Assembly: GCF_030013205.1 (NCBI RefSeq)
Contig: NZ_CP122648.1
Reading direction: 5' to 3' (one strand)
Origin: Escherichia coli
GTDB taxonomy: Bacteria > Pseudomonadota > Gammaproteobacteria > Enterobacterales > Enterobacteriaceae
DNA length: 64,000 nt
Shown here: piece by piece, positions 3,097 through 58,748 of the stretch
Layout of the letters: each line of letters opens with the position of its first letter
How positions within the stretch are numbered: position 1 is the stretch's first letter
Program-made: the position numbers and the translations under genes
The notes under the pieces: model-generated
Seen by the model: only the letters and a program-made list of their open reading frames with translations
Told to the model about the DNA's origin: nothing
Database searches by the model: none

Positions 3097-4053
3097 GTGA
3101 GACTCGCCCCGCTCTACCGCAACGCCCTTCTATTAACAGGACTTTTGCTTTCAGGAATAGTCGCAGTTCAGGCCGCCGACTGGCCGCGTCAGATTACTGA
3201 CAGCCGGGGCACTCATACCCTGGAAAGCCAGCCGCAGCGTATTGTTTCCACCAGCGTCACCCTGACCGGCTCACTGCTGGCGATTGATGCTCCGGTGATC
3301 GCCAGCGGCGCGACCACGCCAAATAACCGCGTCGCGGATGACCAGGGCTTTTTACGCCAGTGGAGCAAGGTGGCGAAAGAACGCAAACTGCAACGGCTCT
3401 ATATCGGCGAACCGAGTGCAGAAGCCGTTGCCGCGCAAATGCCGGATCTGATTTTAATTAGCGCAACTGGCGGGGATTCGGCGCTGGCGCTGTATGATCA
3501 GCTTTCCACCATAGCCCCGACATTAATCATCAATTACGACGACAAAAGCTGGCAGGCGCTGTTAACGCAACTTGGCGAAATTACCGGGCATGAGAAACAA
3601 GCGGCAGAGCGGATTGCACAGTTTGATAAGCAACTGGCGGCGGCGAAAGAGCAAATCAAATTACCGCCGCAGCCGGTCACTGCCATTGTCTATACCGCCG
3701 CTGCACACAGTGCCAATCTCTGGACGCCGGAATCAGCACAAGGGCAGATGCTGGAACAACTCGGCTTTACGTTGGCGAAATTGCCCGCAGGGTTAAACGC
3801 CAGCCAAAGCCAGGGCAAACGCCATGACATCATTCAGCTTGGTGGAGAAAATCTGGCTGCAGGGTTAAATGGCGAGTCACTATTCCTGTTCGCCGGTGAT
3901 CAGAAAGATGCCGATGCGATTTATGCTAATCCGCTGCTCGCGCACCTGCCTGCAGTACAAAACAAGCAGGTTTATGCGCTGGGAACCGAGACGTTCCGTC
4001 TGGATTACTACAGCGCCATGCAAGTGCTGGAACGGCTTAAGGCGCTGTTTTAA
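3097..4053 (+). CDS. fepB: periplasmic ferric-enterobactin binding protein FepB
   Basis: 318-aa ORF with GTG start at 3097, signal peptide (…[10 protein letters not shown]) and recognised FepB sequence. Confidence 0.95.
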
Positions 4054-4056
4054 GCA

Positions 4057-5307
4057 TTAACTGTCGGACGCTGTCACCTGCGGCGGCGTCTGGCGAAAAC
4101 GCCGCAACTCCACCAGCACCAGCAATAACAACACGCCGATAATCAACAAACCAAAACCGCTCGCGCTTGCGGAAGCAACCGGTGTCATCATCGCGCCCAA
4201 ACCGCCCAGCAGCGCCGCGCCTATGGCATCACCCGTCACGTTTTGTGCCGTCCACAAACCGTTAATCCGCCCTAACATCGCTTCCGGGGTTTGCGTTTGC
4301 AGCATTGTATATTGCAGCAACGAACTAACCGCGCTCAGCCAGCCGAACAGCGCCAGACAAACCACGCCTAAAATCCACATCGGCATCAAGCCAAACAGCC
4401 CAATGGCGAGGAACGATCCCAGCGTGGAGAGCAGCATCAATAACCCTGGTCGCGCGCTATGTGCCAGCTTCCCGCTGGTTAACGCGCCAATAGCCGCGCC
4501 GAGCGGGATCGCCGCATAGAGAAAACCAATCTGTGCCGCCGACATCTGCCAGTTGTCAGCCAGCGCCGGATACAGTACCCGCACCGCGCTCGCCATCGTC
4601 AATAAACCACCCAACAGCGCAATCCCTCCTACCAGCGGGCTGGCGAGCAGAAAACGAAATCCTGCCAGTAATGATTTCAACGGATGCTCACGCGGCTGCG
4701 GTGGCGGTGGCAACGCCGGAAGGCTTAACAACGGTAGCAAGGTAATAAACGTGCCCGCCGCCGCCAGCCCGTAGTTCCAGGCTACGCCGCCAGTCGCCAG
4801 CAGTAAACCACCAATCATAGGCGAAATCACCGATCCCAGGCGCACAGTCAACATGGTGATCGCCCCGGCCTGCATTAAGTTTTCACGCCCTACCAGTGCA
4901 GGTGTCGCCGCCAGTAGCGCCGTAACGCCAAGTGATGCGAAAAAACCATCCCATAAACCAAGTAAATAGATTGCCAACAATGACGGCTCCGGCAGCAGTG
5001 CATTAAGGCACAGTCCAATGAAGCCAATGCCACAGGTGCCGCGCGCCAGCAAAATCACTTTTTTGCGTTCATAGCGATCCGCCAGCACACCGCCGACCAT
5101 CAGGCCAACAAACATCGCGCCGCCGGTCAGCGTCACCGAAAGCCCCACCTGCCAGGTAGAATGCGTCATCATCTGGATCTGCACCGGCACCGCGACGCCG
5201 AGCAAACCCAGAGACACAATTGAGATAAAACGAGCGAGGAATACTGCACGAAACGCCGGGTGCGTTTTCAACAGGCTGAGGTTAAGCAGCCAGGATTGTT
5301 TATTCAT
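4057..5307 (-). CDS. entS: enterobactin exporter EntS (MFS transporter)
   Basis: 416-aa polytopic membrane [30 protein letters not shown]… recognised as EntS/YbdA. Confidence 0.95.
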
Positions 5308-5380
5308 TACAATGCCTTGCCATCAAATATTTTAAATACCTATTTTTAGGCTGCACATGCTAACATATCCAAATAAGATC

Positions 5381-5405
5381 GATAACGATAATTAATTTCA
5401 TTATC
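5381..5405. promoter_or_regulatory. Fur box in the divergent entS / fepD promoter region
   Basis: gataacgataattaatttcattatc contains overlapping GATAAT/ATTATC Fur hexamers. Confidence 0.7.
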
Positions 5406-5417
5406 ATGGAAGTTCGT

Positions 5418-6422
5418 ATGTCTGGTTCTATTGCCGTGACACGCGCCATTGCCGTGCCCGGATTGCTGTTATTACTGATTATCGCGACGGCATTAAGCCT
5501 GCTCATTGGGGCAAAATCACTCCCCGCTTTCGTAGTGCTGGAGGCCCTCTCCGGCACCTGCCAGAGCGCCGACTGCACCATCGTGCTCGACGCGCGACTG
5601 CCGCGCACCCTTGCCGGTTTACTAGCCGGCGGTGCGCTTGGCCTTGCCGGGGCGTTGATGCAAACCCTCACCCGAAACCCACTTGCCGACCCCGGCTTGC
5701 TTGGTGTGAACGCCGGAGCCAGCTTTGCCATTGTGCTGGGTGCGGCGCTGTTTGGTTACTCATCCGCGCAGGAACAACTGGCGATGGCCTTCGCCGGGGC
5801 GCTGGTGGCCTCATTGATTGTTGCCTTTACCGGCAGCCAGGGCGGCGGGCAGTTAAGTCCGGTGCGTTTAACCCTGGCGGGCGTGGCACTGGCGGCGGTG
5901 CTGGAAGGGCTGACCAGCGGCATCGCCCTGCTTAATCCTGACGTCTACGATCAGTTGCGTTTCTGGCAAGCCGGTTCGCTGGATATTCGCAATCTACATA
6001 CCTTAAAAGTGGTGCTGATCCCGGTGCTGATCGCCGGAGCAACCGCACTATTACTGAGCCGCGCGCTGAACAGTTTAAGCCTCGGCAGTGACACCGCGAC
6101 GGCGCTGGGTAGTCGCGTGGCGCGCACACAGTTGATTGGTCTGCTGGCGATTACCGTGCTTTGTGGTAGTGCGACGGCGGTAGTTGGCCCGATTGCCTTT
6201 ATTGGCCTGATGATGCCGCACATGGCGCGCTGGCTGGTAGGTGCCGATCATCGCTGGTCGCTGCCCGTCACGCTACTCGCCACCCCTGCCCTGCTGCTGT
6301 TTGCCGATATCATCGGGCGGGTGATTGTGCCCGGCGAACTGCGCGTTTCTATAGTCAGTGCCTTTATTGGCGCACCGGTGCTGATCTTCCTCGTGCGACG
6401 TAAAACGCGAGGTGGCGCATGA
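5418..6422 (+). CDS. fepD: ferric-enterobactin ABC transporter permease FepD
   Basis: ORF 5406..6422; start chosen at MSGSIAVTR (334 aa); FecCD-family permease sequence. Confidence 0.93.
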   Translation: MSGSIAVTRAIAVPGLLLLLIIATALSLLIGAKSLPAFVVLEALSGTCQSADCTIVLDARLPRTLAGLLAGGALGLAGALMQTLTRNPLADPGLLGVNAGASFAIVLGAALFGYSSAQEQLAMAFAGALVASLIVAFTGSQGGGQLSPVRLTLAGVALAAVLEGLTSGIALLNPDVYDQLRFWQAGSLDIRNLHTLKVVLIPVLIAGATALLLSRALNSLSLGSDTATALGSRVARTQLIGLLAITVLCGSATAVVGPIAFIGLMMPHMARWLVGADHRWSLPVTLLATPALLLFADIIGRVIVPGELRVSIVSAFIGAPVLIFLVRRKTRGGA

Positions 6423-13666: not shown

Positions 13667-14869
13667 TCAACTCCTGTCATGGAAAAGTGGTTGCCAGAGG
13701 TCGATTAGCCCCTGCATCAAGCCACCGCGCCAACAAAGCGCATCATGTCCGCCGTCAACCTGACGCCAGAAAATGGATTCTTTTATGGGGTGTAATTGCG
13801 CATACAGCGCCTGATTGGCCCGCATGATCATCGGCTCGCGAATACCCGCTTCCAGCACAATGCGCAGACCTTCGGCGCTAACTTCACCAGCTTTAAGTTG
13901 CTCAAGTAACACGCCCTCTTGCTGCCCGCCCCGATGCGGCCACCAGTACGATCCTGACTGGCTTAATACACAGCCAAAGCGTTCAGGCCAGTTTAGTCCG
14001 GCATACAGCGCAGAAAGCCCACCAAAACTCTGCCCGGCGACCACGGTGCGATCGGCGCGATCGCTAAAAGGGGCAATAGCTTTCACCAGGGGTAATAACT
14101 CTTGCTGTACTGCCAGCCAGAAATCCGCATTACACGGCAGTTCGTGGGCGCGGTGCGGGGTGTCGATAGCGTCGATCAACACATACACGGCGGGAGGAAG
14201 TTGCTGACGATGGGTCAGCGAAGTTAGCGCAGGCCAGACGGGCATACTCTGCGCCCAAAATTCGCCATCAAGCAAAACTGCCAGCGGGCGTTCTTCTGCT
14301 GTTGCATCGCCGGTGGTAAAAATCCATACACGGCGTGAATTTTTCAGCCGCTCACTTTTCCAGATAATTTCTTTGACAGGCGTTTCTGGCGCTTGCGGAC
14401 AATCCCATCCCGGTTGCAGAGGCGCTTGCGGCATTTCGAGTGCAGAAACAGCGTGCCCTCGCCCGCCTTTCCAGCTTTGTGGATTCAGCGGATCGGCTAT
14501 CGCCTGGGGTAATAGTTTTCGCCAGCCTTCACGTAATTCGAGGCGATCGGGGGATGGTGCAGAAAAAATGTCATCGCGTTCGGTGGGAATAAAACAGTAG
14601 CTGCCGCGCCAGTTGGCATTAAGTTGTGTCGTCCACTGCCAGACGTTGGTACCTGCAATTCGCTGCATCGACTGGGGCTGGCTGTTCTGATGGTGATCGG
14701 TCACACCAGTGATGTAGACCCATACGCGCTTTATCGTCGAGTATTCTTCAGAACCTTGGGGATCACGCCACCAGAAAGTGACCTCAAACATTTCGTCATT
14801 CAGACGCTGCCATTCCGGGCCATGTTTCGACTGCCACCAGCTCTCACTTCCTACTTTTAACGCCGTCAC
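13667..14869 (-). CDS. fes: enterochelin esterase Fes
   Basis: 400-aa ORF MTALKVGSESWWQSKHGPEWQRLNDEMFEV…; esterase GQSFGG motif. Confidence 0.95.
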   Translation of the reverse strand: MTALKVGSESWWQSKHGPEWQRLNDEMFEVTFWWRDPQGSEEYSTIKRVWVYITGVTDHHQNSQPQSMQRIAGTNVWQWTTQLNANWRGSYCFIPTERDDIFSAPSPDRLELREGWRKLLPQAIADPLNPQSWKGGRGHAVSALEMPQAPLQPGWDCPQAPETPVKEIIWKSERLKNSRRVWIFTTGDATAEERPLAVLLDGEFWAQSMPVWPALTSLTHRQQLPPAVYVLIDAIDTPHRAHELPCNADFWLAVQQELLPLVKAIAPFSDRADRTVVAGQSFGGLSALYAGLNWPERFGCVLSQSGSYWWPHRGGQQEGVLLEQLKAGEVSAEGLRIVLEAGIREPMIMRANQALYAQLHPIKESIFWRQVDGGHDALCWRGGLMQGLIDLWQPLFHDRS

Positions 14870-14914: not shown

Positions 14915-14957
14915 ATATATTGATAATATTATTGATAACTATTTGCATTTGCAATAG
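14915..14957. promoter_or_regulatory. overlapping Fur boxes in the divergent fes / fepA promoter region
   Basis: attgataatattattgataactatttgcatttgcaatag carries tandem GATAAT…ATTATC-like hexamers. Confidence 0.75.
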
Positions 14958-15111
14958 CGTAATGGCGCGCCGTGGGAAGCGCGGACATTAATTAACCAAC
15001 TGCACTACGTGTCTTTCAGGATCAAAGGTTTTCGCGGTAGCGGGATGCGTCGTGTTGATGACGACCATGCCCGACAGTTGCAATTCGTGGCAAAAATGCA
15101 GGAATAAAACA

Positions 15112-17352
15112 ATGAACAAGAAGATTCATTCCCTGGCCTTGTTGGTCAATCTGGGGATTTATGGGGTAGCACAGGCACAAGAGCCAACCGATACTCCTGT
15201 TTCACATGACGATACCATTGTCGTTACCGCCGCCGAGCAGAACTTGCAAGCGCCTGGCGTTTCGACCATCACCGCAGATGAAATCCGCAAAAACCCCGTT
15301 GCCCGCGATGTGTCGGAGATCATCCGTACCATGCCAGGCGTTAACCTGACCGGTAACTCCACCAGTGGTCAGCGTGGGAATAACCGACAGATTGATATTC
15401 GCGGTATGGGTCCGGAAAACACGCTGATTTTGATTGACGGCAAGCCGGTAAGCAGCCGTAACTCGGTGCGCCAGGGCTGGCGTGGCGAGCGCGATACCCG
15501 TGGTGATACCTCCTGGGTGCCACCTGAAATGATTGAACGTATTGAAGTTCTGCGTGGTCCGGCAGCGGCGCGTTATGGCAACGGCGCGGCGGGCGGCGTG
15601 GTTAACATCATCACCAAAAAAGGCAGCGGCGAGTGGCACGGCTCCTGGGACGCATATTTCAATGCGCCAGAACATAAAGAGGAAGGTGCCACCAAACGCA
15701 CTAACTTTAGCCTCACCGGTCCGCTGGGCGACGAATTCAGCTTCCGCTTGTATGGCAACCTCGACAAAACTCAGGCTGACGCGTGGGATATCAACCAGGG
15801 CCATCAGTCCGCGCGTGCCGGAACGTATGCCACGACGTTACCAGCCGGGCGCGAAGGGGTAATTAACAAAGATATTAATGGCGTGGTGCGCTGGGACTTC
15901 GCGCCTCTGCAATCACTCGAACTGGAAGCGGGCTACAGCCGCCAGGGTAACCTGTATGCGGGCGATACCCAGAACACCAACTCTGACTCCTATACCCGCT
16001 CGAAATATGGCGATGAAACCAACCGTCTGTATCGCCAGAACTACTCGCTGACATGGAACGGCGGCTGGGATAACGGCGTGACCACCAGCAACTGGGTGCA
16101 GTACGAACACACCCGTAACTCGCGTATTCCGGAAGGTCTGGCGGGCGGTACCGAAGGGAAATTTAACGAAAAAGCGACACAGGATTTCGTCGATATCGAT
16201 CTCGATGATGTGATGCTGCACAGCGAAGTTAACCTGCCGATTGATTTCCTCGTTAACCAGACGCTGACGCTGGGTACGGAGTGGAATCAGCAACGGATGA
16301 AGGACTTGAGTTCCAATACCCAGGCGCTGACCGGGACGAATACCGGCGGTGCTATTGATGGTGTGAGTGCCACCGACCGTAGCCCGTATTCAAAAGCAGA
16401 AATTTTCTCGCTGTTTGCCGAAAACAACATGGAGCTGACTGACAGCACCATCGTAACGCCGGGGCTGCGTTTCGATCATCACAGCATTGTTGGCAATAAC
16501 TGGAGTCCGGCGCTGAACATCTCGCAAGGTTTAGGCGATGACTTCACTCTGAAAATGGGCATTGCCCGTGCTTATAAAGCGCCGAGTCTGTACCAGACTA
16601 ACCCGAACTACATTCTCTACAGTAAAGGTCAGGGCTGCTATGCCAGCGCGGGCGGCTGCTATCTGCAAGGTAATGATGACCTGAAAGCGGAAACCAGCAT
16701 CAACAAAGAGATTGGTCTGGAGTTCAAACGCGACGGCTGGCTGGCGGGCGTCACCTGGTTCCGTAACGATTATCGCAATAAGATTGAAGCGGGCTATGTG
16801 GCTGTAGGGCAAAACGCAGTCGGCACCGATCTCTATCAGTGGGATAACGTACCGAAAGCGGTGGTTGAAGGTCTGGAAGGATCGTTAAACGTACCGGTTA
16901 GCGAAACGGTGATGTGGACCAATAACATCACTTATATGCTGAAGAGTGAAAACAAAACCACGGGCGACCGTTTGTCGATCATCCCGGAGTATACGTTGAA
17001 CTCAACGCTGAGCTGGCAGGCACGGGAAGATTTGTCGATGCAAACAACCTTCACCTGGTACGGCAAGCAGCAGCCGAAGAAGTACAACTATAAAGGTCAG
17101 CCAGCGGTTGGACCGGAAACCAAAGAAATCAGCCCGTACAGCATTGTTGGCCTGAGCGCGACCTGGGATGTGACGAAGAATGTCAGTCTGACCGGCGGCG
17201 TGGACAACCTGTTCGACAAACGTTTGTGGCGTGCAGGTAATGCCCAGACCACGGGCGATCTGGCAGGAGCCAACTATATCGCCGGTGCCGGGGCGTATAC
17301 CTATAACGAGCCGGGACGTACGTGGTATATGAGCATTAATACTCACTTTTGA
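15112..17352 (+). CDS. fepA: TonB-dependent ferric-enterobactin outer membrane receptor FepA
   Basis: ORF 15052..17352; start chosen at MNKKIHSLALLVNLGIYGVAQA (746 aa); C-terminal aromatic residue (…SINTHF). Confidence 0.95.
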   Translation: MNKKIHSLALLVNLGIYGVAQAQEPTDTPVSHDDTIVVTAAEQNLQAPGVSTITADEIRKNPVARDVSEIIRTMPGVNLTGNSTSGQRGNNRQIDIRGMGPENTLILIDGKPVSSRNSVRQGWRGERDTRGDTSWVPPEMIERIEVLRGPAAARYGNGAAGGVVNIITKKGSGEWHGSWDAYFNAPEHKEEGATKRTNFSLTGPLGDEFSFRLYGNLDKTQADAWDINQGHQSARAGTYATTLPAGREGVINKDINGVVRWDFAPLQSLELEAGYSRQGNLYAGDTQNTNSDSYTRSKYGDETNRLYRQNYSLTWNGGWDNGVTTSNWVQYEHTRNSRIPEGLAGGTEGKFNEKATQDFVDIDLDDVMLHSEVNLPIDFLVNQTLTLGTEWNQQRMKDLSSNTQALTGTNTGGAIDGVSATDRSPYSKAEIFSLFAENNMELTDSTIVTPGLRFDHHSIVGNNWSPALNISQGLGDDFTLKMGIARAYKAPSLYQTNPNYILYSKGQGCYASAGGCYLQGNDDLKAETSINKEIGLEFKRDGWLAGVTWFRNDYRNKIEAGYVAVGQNAVGTDLYQWDNVPKAVVEGLEGSLNVPVSETVMWTNNITYMLKSENKTTGDRLSIIPEYTLNSTLSWQAREDLSMQTTFTWYGKQQPKKYNYKGQPAVGPETKEISPYSIVGLSATWDVTKNVSLTGGVDNLFDKRLWRAGNAQTTGDLAGANYIAGAGAYTYNEPGRTWYMSINTHF

Positions 17353-17390
17353 TGCTAACGTCAGATTGTTGACAAAGTGCGCGTAGTTCA

Positions 17391-17490
17391 TGCCGGATGC
17401 GGCGTGAACGCCTTATCCGGCCTACAAAAATCTTGCCAATTCAATATATTGCAGGACCACGTAGGCCTGATAAGCGTAGCGCATCAGGCA
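17391..17490. repeat. REP / BIME-type extragenic palindromic repeats between fepA and entD
   Basis: tgccggatgcggcgtgaacgccttatccggcctac and inverted gtaggcctgataagcgtagcgcatcaggca are typical REP units. Confidence 0.7.
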
Positions 17491-17526
17491 GTTTTGCGTT
17501 TGTCATCAGTCTCTAATATGGTCGAC

Positions 17527-18147
17527 ATGAAAACTACGCATACCGCCCTCCCCTTTGCCGGACATACGCTGCATTTTGTTAAGTTCGATCCGGCGAGTTT
17601 TTGTGAGCAGGATTTACTCTGGCTGCCACACTACGCGCAACTGCAACACGCTGGACGTAAACGTAAAACAGAGCATTTAGCCGGACGGATCGCTGCAGTT
17701 TATGCGCTGCGGGAATATGGCTATAAATGTGTGCCCGCAATCGGCGAGCTACGCCAACCTGTGTGGCCTGCGGGGGTATACGGCAGCATTAGTCACTGTG
17801 GGACTACGGCATTAGCCGTGGTATCTCGTCAACCAATTGGCATTGATATCGAAGAGATTTTCTCTGTACAAACCGCAAGAGAATTGACAAACAACATTAT
17901 TACACCAGCAGAACACGAGCGACTCGCAGAATGCGGTTTAACCTTTTCTCTGGCGCTGACACTGGCATTTTCCGCCAAAGAGAGCGCATTTAAGGCATCG
18001 GAGAGACAAACTGATGCAGGATTTCTGGATTATCAGATAATTAGCTTGAATAAACAGCAGATCATCATTCGACTAGAGGATGAGCAGTTTGCTGTGCACT
18101 GGCAGATAAAAGAAAAGATAGTCATAACGCTGTGCCAACACGATTAA
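17527..18147 (+). CDS. entD: phosphopantetheinyl transferase EntD
   Basis: ORF 17377..18147; start chosen at MKTTHTALPFAGHTLHFVKF (206 aa); the upstream part of the ORF lies inside the REP repeats; alternative start MVDM at 17518. Confidence 0.9.
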   Translation: MKTTHTALPFAGHTLHFVKFDPASFCEQDLLWLPHYAQLQHAGRKRKTEHLAGRIAAVYALREYGYKCVPAIGELRQPVWPAGVYGSISHCGTTALAVVSRQPIGIDIEEIFSVQTARELTNNIITPAEHERLAECGLTFSLALTLAFSAKESAFKASERQTDAGFLDYQIISLNKQQIIIRLEDEQFAVHWQIKEKIVITLCQHD

Positions 18148-18268
18148 TTGACAATACCCGGAGCGATTCGCCCGCAGCCAATGCTGACTGCGGGCGAAAG
18201 TGTAAAGCAGGTGCCTTACTACTCTGACCTGACAACCGGATATGCGGGGATTACTCCCCGCACAACGG

Positions 18269-18421
18269 CTACTTCTTCGGTTCGTAAGCGAGAACAGCCT
18301 TAAACTCAATATTACGTTCCTTCACCGTAAACTCACACAGCGAGTCTCCGACCAGAAGCGTAAATCCCAGCACCGTTAAACACAGCACTATGACTGCCAC
18401 AAGGGCATATTTCGTCAGCAT
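18269..18421 (-). CDS. hokE: Hok-family type I toxin (HokE-like), copy 1
   Basis: 50-aa product [50 protein letters not shown]. Confidence 0.88.
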
Positions 18422-18566
18422 GTTTATATTGCCTCCATGCGAAGAAGGGACTACCATCCGAGTTGTTGAGGTTCGGAGTGGCAGCCCCAGGATTGATAGA
18501 AATATCTCCTGGGGCTTCATCTTTCCAGACCTCAGAGTTAACCTGAAACCGGAAAGCTTCAGGCAC
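18333..18566 (-). CDS. mok-like overlapping reading frame (modulator of killing), copy 1
   Basis: 77-codon [35 protein letters not shown]… starting upstream of hok and ending inside it in a different frame, as expected for mok. Confidence 0.5.
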
Positions 18567-18600
18567 CCGCTGTTATCTTACCCTTCCTTAGCAAAATAAC
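18530..18600 (+). ncRNA. candidate Sok antisense RNA, copy 1 (position approximate)
   Basis: Inferred from hok/sok architecture only: antisense to the mok translation-initiation region; no promoter or terminator mapped. Confidence 0.25.
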
Positions 18601-18771
18601 TGTTTATTTATACAGCAAGTCCTGTTTCGGACTTCTGTTGGCAACACTCGTTATTGCTCGTAAAACGAAATCGCCCGCAGCCATCACTGACCACGGGCGA
18701 AAGTGTAAAGCAGGTGCCTTACCACCCTGACCTGACAACCGGATATGCGGGGATTACTCCCCGCACAACGG

Positions 18772-18924
18772 CTACTTCTTCGGTTCGTAAGCGAGAACAG
18801 CCTTAAACTCAATATTACGTTCCTTCACCGTAAACTCACACAGCGAGTCTCCGACTAGAAGCGTAAATCCCAGTACCGTCAAACACAGCACTATGACTGC
18901 CACAAGGGCATATTTCGTCAGCAT
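18772..18924 (-). CDS. Hok-family type I toxin, copy 2 (identical protein)
   Basis: Same 50-aa Hok sequence; here the upstream mok frame is fused in frame, giving a 98-codon ORF 18772..19068. Confidence 0.8.
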
Positions 18925-19029
18925 GTTTATATTGCCTCCATGCGAAGAAGGGACTACCATCCAAATTGTCTGGTTTGGAGTGGCAGCCCCAGGGTTGATA
19001 GAAATATCTCCTGGGGCTTCATCTTTCCA

Positions 19030-19100
19030 GACCTCAGAGTTAACCTGAAACCGGAAAGCTTCAGGCACCCGCCGTTATCTTACCCTTCTTCAGCAAAATA
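19030..19100 (+). ncRNA. candidate Sok antisense RNA, copy 2 (position approximate)
   Basis: Inferred by analogy with copy 1. Confidence 0.2.
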
Positions 19101-58671: not shown

Positions 58672-58748
58672 TGGCGCGCCCTGCAGGATTCGAACCTGCG
58701 GCCCACGACTTAGAAGGTCGTTGCTCTATCCAACTGAGCTAAGGGCGC
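58672..58748 (-). tRNA. argU: tRNA-Arg (anticodon UCU), argU
   Basis: Reverse complement reads GCGCCCTTAGCTCAGTTGGATAGAGCAACGACCTTCTAAGTCGTGGGCCGCAGGTTCGAATCCTGCAGGGCGCGCCA (77 nt, encoded CCA). Confidence 0.95.

What the first reader, a model, noticed from the sequence alone, without database searches (positions are those of the whole stretch)
17353..17526. REP/BIME palindromes fill the fepA-entD spacer
The 174-bp spacer between fepA and entD contains two inverted REP-like units, so any internal promoter or processing signal for entD must overlap them. The first in-frame start candidates for entD (the track ORF begins at 17377) lie inside the repeats; the start at 17527 (MKTTH) or 17518 (MVDM) is more plausible.
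Basis: seen in the sequence. Interest (0 to 1): 0.2.

Follow-up and report, generated by a model that had tools for sequence, protein, structure and literature searches.

The report
Known BIME-1 repeat between fepA and entD
The gap between the E. coli iron-uptake genes fepA and entD is almost entirely filled by one copy of a well-known dispersed palindromic repeat (a BIME-1 element), and entD starts just after it, at the ATG the public annotation already uses, so the finding is correct but ordinary.

Summary
The window is E. coli. The fepA stop ends at 17352 and the annotated entD ATG is at 17527, so the spacer is 174 bp. It holds two inverted REP units (17391-17425 on +, 17461-17490 on -), where shuffled sequence gives none. 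They flank a 35-nt linker that matches Rfam ES036 above its gathering score and carries an IHF-like motif. Ten other copies show that the repeat also has two arms, so the element spans 17362-17513, or 152 of 174 bp.

This is a canonical single-copy BIME-1 (RIP/RIB type). It is present in 5345 of 5426 complete E. coli genomes and in every Escherichia species recovered here, but in no other genus. Other genera have a 38-70 bp spacer with a GC-rich hairpin instead.

In 61 of 71 non-Escherichia loci an ATG aligns with MKTTH, which supports 17527 as the start. The ATG at 17518 is found only in Escherichia and is ATA in four contigs whose entD is intact. The ORF from 17377 is broken in relatives.

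The likely role, inferred rather than shown, is an intercistronic stem-loop that stabilises or attenuates the fepA-entD mRNA, plus an IHF site on DNA. Already known; low interest.

The parts
15112..17352 (+). fepA coding sequence (context); stop TGA at 17350-17352
   Evidence: ORF list. RefSeq annotation of the 100%-identical genome and of K-12.
17353..17526 (+). fepA-entD intercistronic spacer, 174 bp
   Evidence: The length is 173-174 bp in all 8 Escherichia-type sequences.
17362..17513 (+). Full-length BIME-1 element (left arm, z1 REP, L linker, y REP, right arm), 152 bp
   Evidence: The boundaries come from an alignment with 10 BIME-1 sequences from other chromosomal loci (representing 9 distinct loci) recovered from metagenome contigs. 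Similarity to L086, L094 and L097 begins at CAGATTGT and ends at CAGTCTC.
17362..17390 (+). Left arm of the element (CAGATTGTTGACAAAGTGCGCGTAGTTCA). It contains GTG 17377, the start of the mechanical 256-aa ORF.
   Evidence: It forms a 14-nt imperfect inverted repeat with the right arm (17363-17376 / 17499-17512).
17391..17425 (+). REP unit 1, z1-type (TGCCGGATGCGGCGTGAACGCCTTATCCGGCCTAC)
   Evidence: Exact pattern match with 0 expected by chance. Hairpin of -21.3 kcal/mol. Matches the REP part of Rfam naRNA4 below threshold. Near-identical in 9 of the 10 other copies.
17426..17460 (+). L linker of BIME-1. Includes the IHF-like motif ATTCAATATATTG at 17439-17451.
   Evidence: Rfam RF02751 ES036 scores 42.2 bits against a gathering score of 37.6 at 17427-17468. 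12 of 13 positions match WATCAANNNNTTR. The core TGCNAATTCAATANATTGCAGG is shared with the other copies.
17461..17490 (-). REP unit 2, y-type, inverted (TGCCTGATGCGCTACGCTTATCAGGCCTAC on the - strand)
   Evidence: Hairpin of -12.9 kcal/mol in the mRNA sense.
17491..17513 (+). Right arm of the element (GTTTTGCGTTTGTCATCAGTCTC). Its U-rich start directly follows the REP2 hairpin in the mRNA sense.
   Evidence: The terminator-like look is my reading of the sequence; the strict terminator scan did not call it.
17518..17520 (+). Alternative in-frame ATG (MVDM start, the older 209-aa model)
   Evidence: Present in all Escherichia loci, absent outside the genus, and ATA in 4 contigs with intact entD. 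No SD (duplex +0.9 kcal/mol). The NCBIfam profile NF007604 is 209 long and starts here.
17527..18147 (+). entD coding sequence as best supported (206 aa, MKTTH...), phosphopantetheinyl transferase
   Evidence: RefSeq start. ATG aligned to residue 1 in 61 of 71 non-Escherichia loci, 42 of them with no alternative upstream in-frame start. NCBIfam EntD equivalog at 425 bits.

Best explanation
The fepA-entD spacer of Escherichia is occupied by one full-length, single-copy BIME-1 element (also called RIP or RIB). Its order is left arm, z1-type REP, 35-nt L linker with an IHF-type site, inverted y-type REP, right arm. It is non-coding. EntD starts at ATG 17527, 13 nt after the element ends, and has essentially no Shine-Dalgarno sequence.

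Shown here: what the element is, where it begins and ends, its strong predicted RNA structure, its fixation in the genus, and the position of the orthologous start codon.

Inferred from what is established for REP/BIME elements in general: on the Fur-controlled fepA-entD transcript the element folds into very stable stem-loops. These shield the upstream fepA segment from 3'-to-5' exonucleases and/or stop part of the transcription (the REP2 hairpin is followed by UUUUGCGUUUGU). The result would be abundant FepA message and little EntD message. On DNA the linker is a probable IHF binding site.

Other Enterobacteriaceae have a 38-70 bp spacer with a single GC-rich hairpin at the same place. The BIME-1 therefore appears to have taken over the position, and probably the job, of an older intercistronic hairpin.
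For: Identity of the element:
- Exact REP matches, with 0 expected by chance.
- Linker above the Rfam ES036 gathering score.
- Alignment with 10 other BIME-1 copies, including the arms.
- The published definition of BIME-1 is z1 + y REPs, single copy, with a long conserved L linker that often carries an IHF site (PMC3333891).

RNA structure:
- -21.3, -12.9 and -44.8 kcal/mol for REP1, REP2 and the whole BIME, with z = -4.6 to -6.2.
- Inter-REP pairing probability is about 1.0 in all sequence contexts tried.

Conservation:
- The locus is present across 5345 of 5426 E. coli genomes.
- It is present in all 5 other Escherichia species-level genomes recovered.
- The spacer is 95.4-97.7% identical between these lineages, which is more than fepA (91-96%) or entD (84-93%).
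- The locus-specific linker variant TTGCCAATTC is kept in six of the seven Escherichia sequences aligned (E. albertii has TTGCTAATTC).

Ancestral state:
- 40 distinct short spacers from other genera fold with a median of -23.9 kcal/mol, and 38 of 40 have z < -2.

Start codon:
-.

General roles of REP/BIME (terminators, mRNA stabilisers, IHF binding): PMC3333891. fepA-entD as a Fur-regulated operon: PMC10763504.
Against: - No experiment at this locus was accessible. mRNA stabilisation, attenuation and IHF binding are all inferred from family membership.
- The IHF motif match (12 of 13) is weak evidence by itself. Matches of that quality occur 1.1 times per kb in the window.
- The strict terminator scan did not call REP2 plus its U-tract.
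- The predicted fold is ambiguous between separate REP hairpins and one long inter-REP hairpin.
- PMC10763504 states that entD has 'its own promoters', which would lessen the importance of read-through.
- The high conservation could partly reflect sequence homogenisation among BIME copies rather than selection at this locus.
Confidence: 0.8

Rival explanations
1. EntD is translated from ATG 17518 (MVDMKTTH..., 209 aa), as in the older annotation, rather than from 17527.
For: The ATG at -9 is present in all 8 Escherichia-type sequences. The three polymorphic sites within ATGGTCGAC all fall on third codon positions of this frame. The NCBIfam EntD profile has 209 positions and begins at this Met.
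Against: Four metagenome contigs have ATA here with an intact 206-aa entD. No non-Escherichia locus has this codon, and many have an in-frame stop 6-9 nt upstream of the MKTTH-equivalent ATG. The SD duplex energy is +0.9 against -2.2 kcal/mol for 17527. RefSeq uses 17527. Three third-position sites arise by chance at about p = 0.04, and one of them destroys the start codon.
Confidence: 0.12
2. The 256-aa ORF from GTG 17377 is real, so the BIME encodes an N-terminal extension of EntD.
For: The frame is open from 17377 in the window, in K-12 and in one other Escherichia lineage.
Against: There is an in-frame stop at -69 in E. coli SCPM-O-B-8794 and at -87 in E. albertii, and the frame is shifted in the two lineages with 173-bp spacers. 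The same sequence occurs as a non-coding repeat at 9 or more other loci. The SD duplex energy is +0.4. The EntD family profile covers only residues 48-256. Orthologues lack the extension.
Confidence: 0.01
3. The BIME acts as an efficient terminator of the fepA transcript, and entD is expressed mainly from its own promoter, either overlapping the element or in the 3' end of fepA.
For: PMC10763504 says entD 'possess[es] its own promoters'. The REP2 hairpin is followed by a U-rich tract. A perfect TTGACA lies in the left arm at 17369-17374. RIB-type elements are described as lying at the 3' ends of transcription units (title of Boccard & Prentki 1993, listed).
Against: No sigma-70-like -35/-10 pair was found anywhere from 14933 to 18400, and there is no -10 at the proper spacing from the TTGACA. 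The strict terminator scan did not call it. The literature treats fepA-entD as one Fur-regulated operon, and a fepA promoter-up mutation is described there as raising the operon.
Confidence: 0.12
4. The element is a selfish or neutral repeat with no selected role at this locus, and it merely displaced the older hairpin.
For: BIME-1 copies are dispersed and occur in many unrelated intergenic sites. The locus tolerates an IS3-family insertion in REP1 in one contig.
Against: The element is fixed in every Escherichia lineage sampled and in 98.5% of E. coli genomes. The spacer is more conserved than both flanking genes, and the locus-specific linker variant is kept in nearly all lineages, which argues against simple homogenisation. 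Almost every other genus keeps a stable hairpin at the same position.
Confidence: 0.2
5. The linker region encodes a free-standing small RNA (Rfam ES036 / CssrF) with a function of its own.
For: The Rfam hit is above the gathering score at 17427-17468 on the + strand.
Against: The 43-nt model coincides with the BIME-1 L linker plus the first bases of the y REP. Any BIME-1 copy would therefore match. There are no promoter or terminator calls around it, and it lies inside an operon transcript, so a stable decay fragment is the simpler reading. I found no literature on it in the library.
Confidence: 0.04

Closest known systems
BIME-1 (bacterial interspersed mosaic element type 1; also RIP / RIB, the IHF-binding REP doublets of E. 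coli)
   Same: It has a z1-type and a y-type REP in inverse orientation, occurs as a single copy, and has a long conserved L linker with the TGCAAATTCAATATATTGCAGG core and an IHF-type motif. It is extragenic, lies downstream of a gene, and belongs to a family with many copies per genome.
   Different: Nothing essential differs. The linker has a locus-specific C (TGCCAATTC where most other copies have TGCAAATTC). It sits between two genes of one operon rather than at the end of a transcription unit.
Intercistronic REPs of the malE-malF and hisJ-hisQ operons, the classic mRNA-stabilising REP elements (from my own knowledge: Higgins 1982; Newbury 1987; Higgins 1988, the last listed)
   Same: REP hairpins lie between a highly expressed upstream gene for a binding or receptor protein and a weakly expressed downstream gene. 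The expected effect is differential segment stability within one transcript.
   Different: Those cases were tested experimentally and this locus was not. Those elements are not BIME-1 with an IHF linker.
REPIN (a REP doublet forming a long hairpin, the proposed mobile unit of RAYT / TnpA-REP)
   Same: Two inverted REPs are predicted to pair with each other into one long hairpin (probability about 1.0). Terminal arms form an imperfect inverted repeat.
   Different: No RAYT/TnpA-REP gene lies nearby in the window. Mobility was not tested.
Rfam RF02751 ES036 (CssrF)
   Same: Scores 42.2 bits, above the gathering score of 37.6, over the full model.
   Different: The model is simply the BIME-1 linker. 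The match identifies the repeat family, not an sRNA gene at this locus.
GC-rich CCCTCTCC...GGAGAGGG hairpin in the fepA-entD spacer of Citrobacter, Salmonella, Klebsiella, Enterobacter and other genera
   Same: Same position, 0-12 nt after the fepA stop and 0-14 nt before the entD ATG. It is a stable stem-loop, and some copies are followed by a T-run.
   Different: The sequence is unrelated and it is 22-45 nt long instead of 152. It has no linker and no IHF motif. It may itself belong to a repeat family (boxC-like, from memory), since Enterobacter and Lelliottia carry 1-5 tandem composite units. That was not tested.

Membership tests
BIME-1 (RIP/RIB) | Two REP units in inverse orientation | tested here: met
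   17391-17425 (+) and 17461-17490 (-). Exact pattern matches with 0 expected in 100 shuffles. Inverted-repeat pairs I1, I3 and I5.
BIME-1 (RIP/RIB) | One z1-type and one y-type REP (definition in PMC3333891) | tested here: met
   REP1 is GCCGGATGCGGCGTGAACGCCTTATCCGGCCTAC (G/C at the diagnostic positions, GTGAAC loop). REP2 is GCCTGATGCG...CTTATCAGGCCTAC (T/A). The same pairing is seen in 9 of the 10 other copies. Which sequence type is called z1 and which y rests on my memory of Bachellier/Gilson, because the paper's figure is not held.
BIME-1 (RIP/RIB) | Long, well-conserved L linker between the REPs | tested here: met
   35-nt linker. Rfam ES036 at 42.2 bits against a gathering score of 37.6. 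The core is shared with copies at 9 or more other loci.
BIME-1 (RIP/RIB) | IHF binding site in the linker | tested here: inconclusive
   ATTCAATATATTG matches WATCAANNNNTTR at 12 of 13 positions, but matches of that quality occur 1.1 per kb by chance. Binding itself cannot be tested here. The ChIP supplement and the RIB paper were not held.
BIME-1 (RIP/RIB) | Single copy at the locus (not a tandem array as in BIME-2) | tested here: met
   These are the only two REP matches in the 64-kb window. All Escherichia loci have one unit and a 173-174 bp spacer.
BIME-1 (RIP/RIB) | Extragenic, and dispersed in many copies per genome | tested here: met
   It lies between the fepA stop and the entD start. 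There are 206,322 matching places in 5425 genomes, with a capped median of 40 per genome. Distinct loci were recovered.
REP as mRNA 3'-end protector or partial terminator | Stable stem-loop in the sense of the transcript, downstream of the protected gene | tested here: met
   -21.3, -12.9 and -44.8 kcal/mol, z down to -6.2. REP2 is followed by a U-rich tract.
REP as mRNA 3'-end protector or partial terminator | Upstream segment more stable or more abundant than the downstream segment; RNA 3' ends at the REP | not testable with these tools
   No transcript data were available. The literature searches found nothing for this locus.
REP-mediated translational down-regulation (REP within 15 nt of the stop codon; criterion quoted in PMC12306157) | REP stem-loop begins no more than 15 nt after the stop codon | tested here: not met
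   REP1 starts 39 nt after the fepA stop (17352 to 17391/2). The left arm starts 10 nt after the stop, but its pairing with the right arm is not robust: probability is above 0.9 for the isolated spacer and about 0 with coding flanks.
EntD (Sfp-type phosphopantetheinyl transferase), N-terminus | Family profile and orthologues begin at the chosen start | tested here: met
   The NF007604 equivalog scores 425 bits and covers residues 48-256 of the long ORF. An ATG aligns with MKTTH in 61 of 71 non-Escherichia loci. The RefSeq protein is 206 aa.

The most novel reading that the evidence does not exclude
The BIME-1 replaced an ancestral intercistronic hairpin while keeping the same layout: stop codon, about 10 nt, structured element, about 13 nt, ATG. 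If the 152-nt element folds on itself with its arms paired, the fepA stop codon and the SD-less entD start codon come within about 24 single-stranded nucleotides of each other. EntD synthesis in Escherichia would then depend on ribosomes terminating at fepA and re-initiating across the base of the folded repeat. That would make a dispersed repeat an integral part of a translational-coupling device, and it would explain why entD has no Shine-Dalgarno sequence. Supporting facts: no SD, a comparable geometry in other genera, and a spacer more conserved than its flanking genes. Against it: the arm pairing vanishes when coding flanks are included in the fold.
Probability: 0.07. Interest if true: 0.4.

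Novelty: already known. Interest (0 to 1): 0.1.

Why it matters
It matters little beyond careful annotation. It confirms that the 256-aa ORF from 17377 is an artefact of reading through a repeat, and that entD should start at 17527.

The comparative side result is mildly useful. Every enterobacterial genus sampled keeps some stable hairpin between fepA and entD. Escherichia swapped a roughly 30-nt hairpin for a 152-bp BIME-1 that is now more conserved than the genes around it. That makes this locus a clean natural test case for whether BIME-1 elements set the expression ratio of neighbouring genes in an operon, here an abundant outer-membrane receptor against a trace-level modifying enzyme.

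Tried and rejected
- My first REP pattern had a fixed, wrong loop length and found nothing. A variable-gap pattern replaced it.
- Literature searches for REP in fepA-entD, for ES036 and for an entD promoter or start codon returned nothing relevant. The 1989 entD sequence papers (Armstrong et al.; Coderre and Earhart), which as I recall first noted REP sequences here, are not in the library, so that attribution rests on memory.
- Boccard & Prentki 1993 is not held. The IHF ChIP-seq paper has no supplements held and does not mention fepA or entD. A second IHF genome-wide paper has nothing on this locus either.
- The scan of viral contigs only re-found the same locus.
- RNAalifold on a MAFFT alignment of the non-Escherichia spacers failed because the hairpins were not aligned in register. 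I did not use it as covariation evidence and used per-sequence folding against shuffles instead.
- I considered that the 14-nt inverted repeat flanking the BIME might be the remnant of a pre-existing hairpin. This was rejected because the arms are part of the repeat family.
- I looked for a flanking direct repeat (target duplication) at this copy and found none (z = -0.3).
- I considered the rule that a REP within 15 nt of the stop codon affects translation. It is not met (REP1 starts 39 nt after the stop).
- The PDB search only showed a distant EntD homologue and says nothing about the N-terminus.

Full report
**What is there.** The window is Escherichia coli. A 374-nt query centred on the finding is 100% identical to strain CFSAN018748. 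It is found at full length in 5345 of 5426 complete E. coli genomes, always under the annotations fepA and entD. In the window, fes lies on the minus strand (13667-14869). fepA runs 15112-17352 and entD follows on the same strand. RefSeq starts entD at the ATG that corresponds to 17527, both in the identical genome and in K-12 MG1655 (NP_415115.2, 621 bp). This gives a 174-bp spacer in both. The coordinates in the finding are therefore exact.

**Checking the observation.** A REP pattern with a variable loop matches exactly twice in the 64 kb, at 17391-17425 (+) and 17461-17490 (-). None of 100 dinucleotide-preserving shuffles gave any match. The repeat finder reports the corresponding palindromes and the inter-unit inverted repeat. 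In the mRNA sense the two units fold at -21.3 and -12.9 kcal/mol. The pair with its linker folds at -44.8 kcal/mol (z = -6.2), and the spacer with short flanks at -75.2 (z = -4.6). The 35 nt between the units match Rfam RF02751 (ES036/CssrF) at 42.2 bits, above its gathering score of 37.6. REP1 also matches the REP portion of naRNA4 below threshold.

**Identity.** Ton-Hoang et al. (PMC3333891) define BIME-1 as a z1 and a y REP in inverse orientation, occurring singly. The two are separated by a long, well-conserved L linker that frequently carries an IHF site. The window element fits each of these points. To see the family directly I scanned metagenome contigs for the linker core, TGCNAATTCAATANATTGCAGG. 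After merging duplicates, this gave 10 further BIME-1 sequences (representing 9 distinct loci) from other E. coli-type loci.

The alignment shows near-identical z1 REPs, the conserved linker and y REPs. It also shows two flanking arms in the full-length copies: CAGATTGTTGACAAAGTGCGCGTTGTTCAT on the left and GTTTTGCGTTTGTCATCAGTCTC on the right. The 14-nt inverted repeat at 17363-17376 / 17499-17512 is therefore the two ends of the repeat, not a locus feature. The element spans 17362-17513, or 152 of 174 bp. Only 9 nt after the fepA stop and 13 nt before the entD ATG are specific to this locus.

The IHF-like motif ATTCAATATATTG (17439-17451) matches the consensus WATCAANNNNTTR at 12 of 13 positions. 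Such matches occur 1.1 times per kb in the window. The case for IHF binding therefore rests on family membership, not on the motif.

**Evolution of the spacer.** A FepA-based scan of one genome per species returned 80 loci. In all five other Escherichia-lineage genomes the spacer is 173-174 bp and carries the same BIME-1. These are E. albertii, E. whittamii, two unnamed Escherichia species and a divergent E. coli. In 71 non-Escherichia loci that have both genes, no REP motif lies in a contiguous fepA-entD spacer (the only matches, in L071 and L077, are where entD is displaced 1.7-2.6 kb).

Most of those spacers are 38-70 bp and consist essentially of one GC-rich hairpin, typically CCCTCTCC-loop-GGAGAGGG, sometimes followed by a T-run. 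Forty distinct short spacers fold with a median of -23.9 kcal/mol, and 38 of them have z < -2 against shuffles. Enterobacter, Lelliottia and relatives carry one to five tandem composite units built around the same palindrome.

So a stable stem-loop between fepA and entD is the rule across the family, and Escherichia has a BIME-1 in its place. Within Escherichia the spacer is 95.4-97.7% identical to the window. That is more conserved than fepA (91.1-95.8%) or entD (84.1-92.9%). The locus-specific linker variant TTGCCAATTC is retained, which argues against simple homogenisation by other copies.

**The entD start.** The mechanical ORF begins at GTG 17377, in the left arm of the element. The comparisons rule it out as a start:
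- The frame is stopped 69 nt upstream of the ATG in one E. coli lineage and 87 nt upstream in E. albertii. It is shifted where the spacer is 173 bp.
- The EntD family profile covers only residues 48-256 of that ORF.
- The same DNA is a non-coding repeat at other loci.

Outside Escherichia, an ATG aligns with residue 1 of MKTTH in 61 of 71 loci, with a conserved M-x-T-x-H N-terminus. In 42 of these there is no alternative in-frame start before the next upstream stop, which is often only 6-9 nt away.

The ATG at 17518 (MVDM) exists only in Escherichia. It reads ATA in four metagenome contigs whose 206-aa entD is intact. All three polymorphisms in the 9 nt between the two ATGs fall on third codon positions. 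That is a weak hint that 17518 may be used where present, but it is far from significant.

Neither ATG has a usable Shine-Dalgarno sequence. The duplex with the anti-SD is +0.9 kcal/mol for 17518 and -2.2 for 17527, against -6 to -10 for most orthologues. The NCBIfam model is 209 positions long, a relic of the older 209-aa model.

**How it most likely works.** The identity, extent, structure, conservation and start position are shown above. The function is inferred. REP/BIME elements are documented as partial terminators, as barriers to 3'-to-5' exonucleases that stabilise upstream mRNA, and as IHF, gyrase and Pol I binding sites (PMC3333891). fepA-entD is treated as one Fur-regulated operon (PMC10763504).

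The most economical reading has three parts:
- The element decouples the abundance of the fepA segment from that of the entD segment.
- The REP2 hairpin followed by UUUUGCGUUUGU adds some termination.
- The missing SD keeps EntD translation low.

The fact that other genera keep a hairpin at the same position supports a conserved need for a stem-loop here. Against this reading:
- The strict terminator scan does not call the site, and no promoter-like site is found in the spacer.
- One paper states that entD has its own promoters.
- The predicted fold is ambiguous. Thermodynamically the two REPs pair with each other (probability about 1.0) rather than each forming its own hairpin. The arm-arm helix appears only when the spacer is folded in isolation.

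**Comparison with what is known, and verdict.** This is a textbook BIME-1, and the start codon agrees with current annotation. As far as I recall, REP sequences in this spacer were already noted when entD was sequenced in 1989, but I could not retrieve those papers. The finding is correct and ordinary. The only mildly new points are comparative: a hairpin replaced by a BIME-1 in the Escherichia lineage, a spacer more conserved than its neighbouring genes, and an entD without an SD. The rule that a REP within 15 nt of the stop codon affects translation does not apply, because REP1 begins 39 nt after the stop.

Noticed in passing
L086, L089, L094, L097 (metagenome loci; about 110 nt either side of the linker match listed): Four of nine other distinct BIME-1 loci are flanked on both sides by direct repeats of a GC-rich terminator-like hairpin of 20-37 nt (local alignment z = 3.6-14.2 against shuffles). 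This looks as if the element sits between duplicated copies of the neighbouring terminator. The fepA-entD copy has no such duplication (z = -0.3). I do not know whether this has been described.
   Followed up: partly
L194: 3100-4560: In one gut-metagenome contig an IS3-family element is inserted in the loop of REP1 between fepA and entD. Its ORFs are orfA 3160-3690 and orfB 3795-4517 (NF033516, 291 bits). The junctions are ...GCGGCGTGAA / ACTGAACTGCACCCC and GGGGTTCAGTTCAG / AACGCCTTATCC. This fits the known targeting of REP loops by some IS3-family elements.
   Followed up: partly
L147: 1091-5269: A contig joins mscK (kefA, 1120 aa) to entD through the BIME-1, with the fepA-entD-type linker. 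This is either an inversion or recombination between two BIME-1 copies or a chimeric assembly across the 150-bp repeat.
   Followed up: no
window 18269-19070: There are two tandem hokE/sok toxin-antitoxin copies (Rfam sok at 18413-18568 and 18916-19070, about 82 bits each; two hokE genes in the RefSeq record of the identical strain). K-12 has one hokE/sokE followed by IS186 at this position.
   Followed up: partly
L031, L034, L042, L053, L061, L069, L079, L081 (fepA-entD spacers, about 5240-5750 in each locus): In Enterobacter, Lelliottia and related genera the same spacer is expanded to 160-490 bp. It holds 1-5 tandem composite units: a terminator-like AAAACGGCAACC..GTTGCCGTTTT hairpin, the CCCTCTCCC..GGGAGAGGG palindrome, and GGGGTGAGGGC. 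This suggests the spacer is a hotspot for a different family of small palindromic repeats (boxC-like, from memory).
   Followed up: partly
window 17527-18147 compared with NCBIfam NF007604: The NCBIfam EntD equivalog profile is 209 positions long and starts at the MVD extension, while RefSeq proteins are 206 aa. The model keeps a superseded start.
   Followed up: yes
L054, L071, L072, L077 (and no entD hit in L025, L027, L030, L043): In a few genera entD is displaced 1.7-2.6 kb downstream of fepA, or was not found within the stretch fetched, so the fepA-entD adjacency is not universal.
   Followed up: no
window 52745-52944 (-) and 58675-58748 (-): There is an Rfam IS009 match (133.7 bits) and a tRNA gene elsewhere in the window. 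Both are unrelated to the finding.
   Followed up: no
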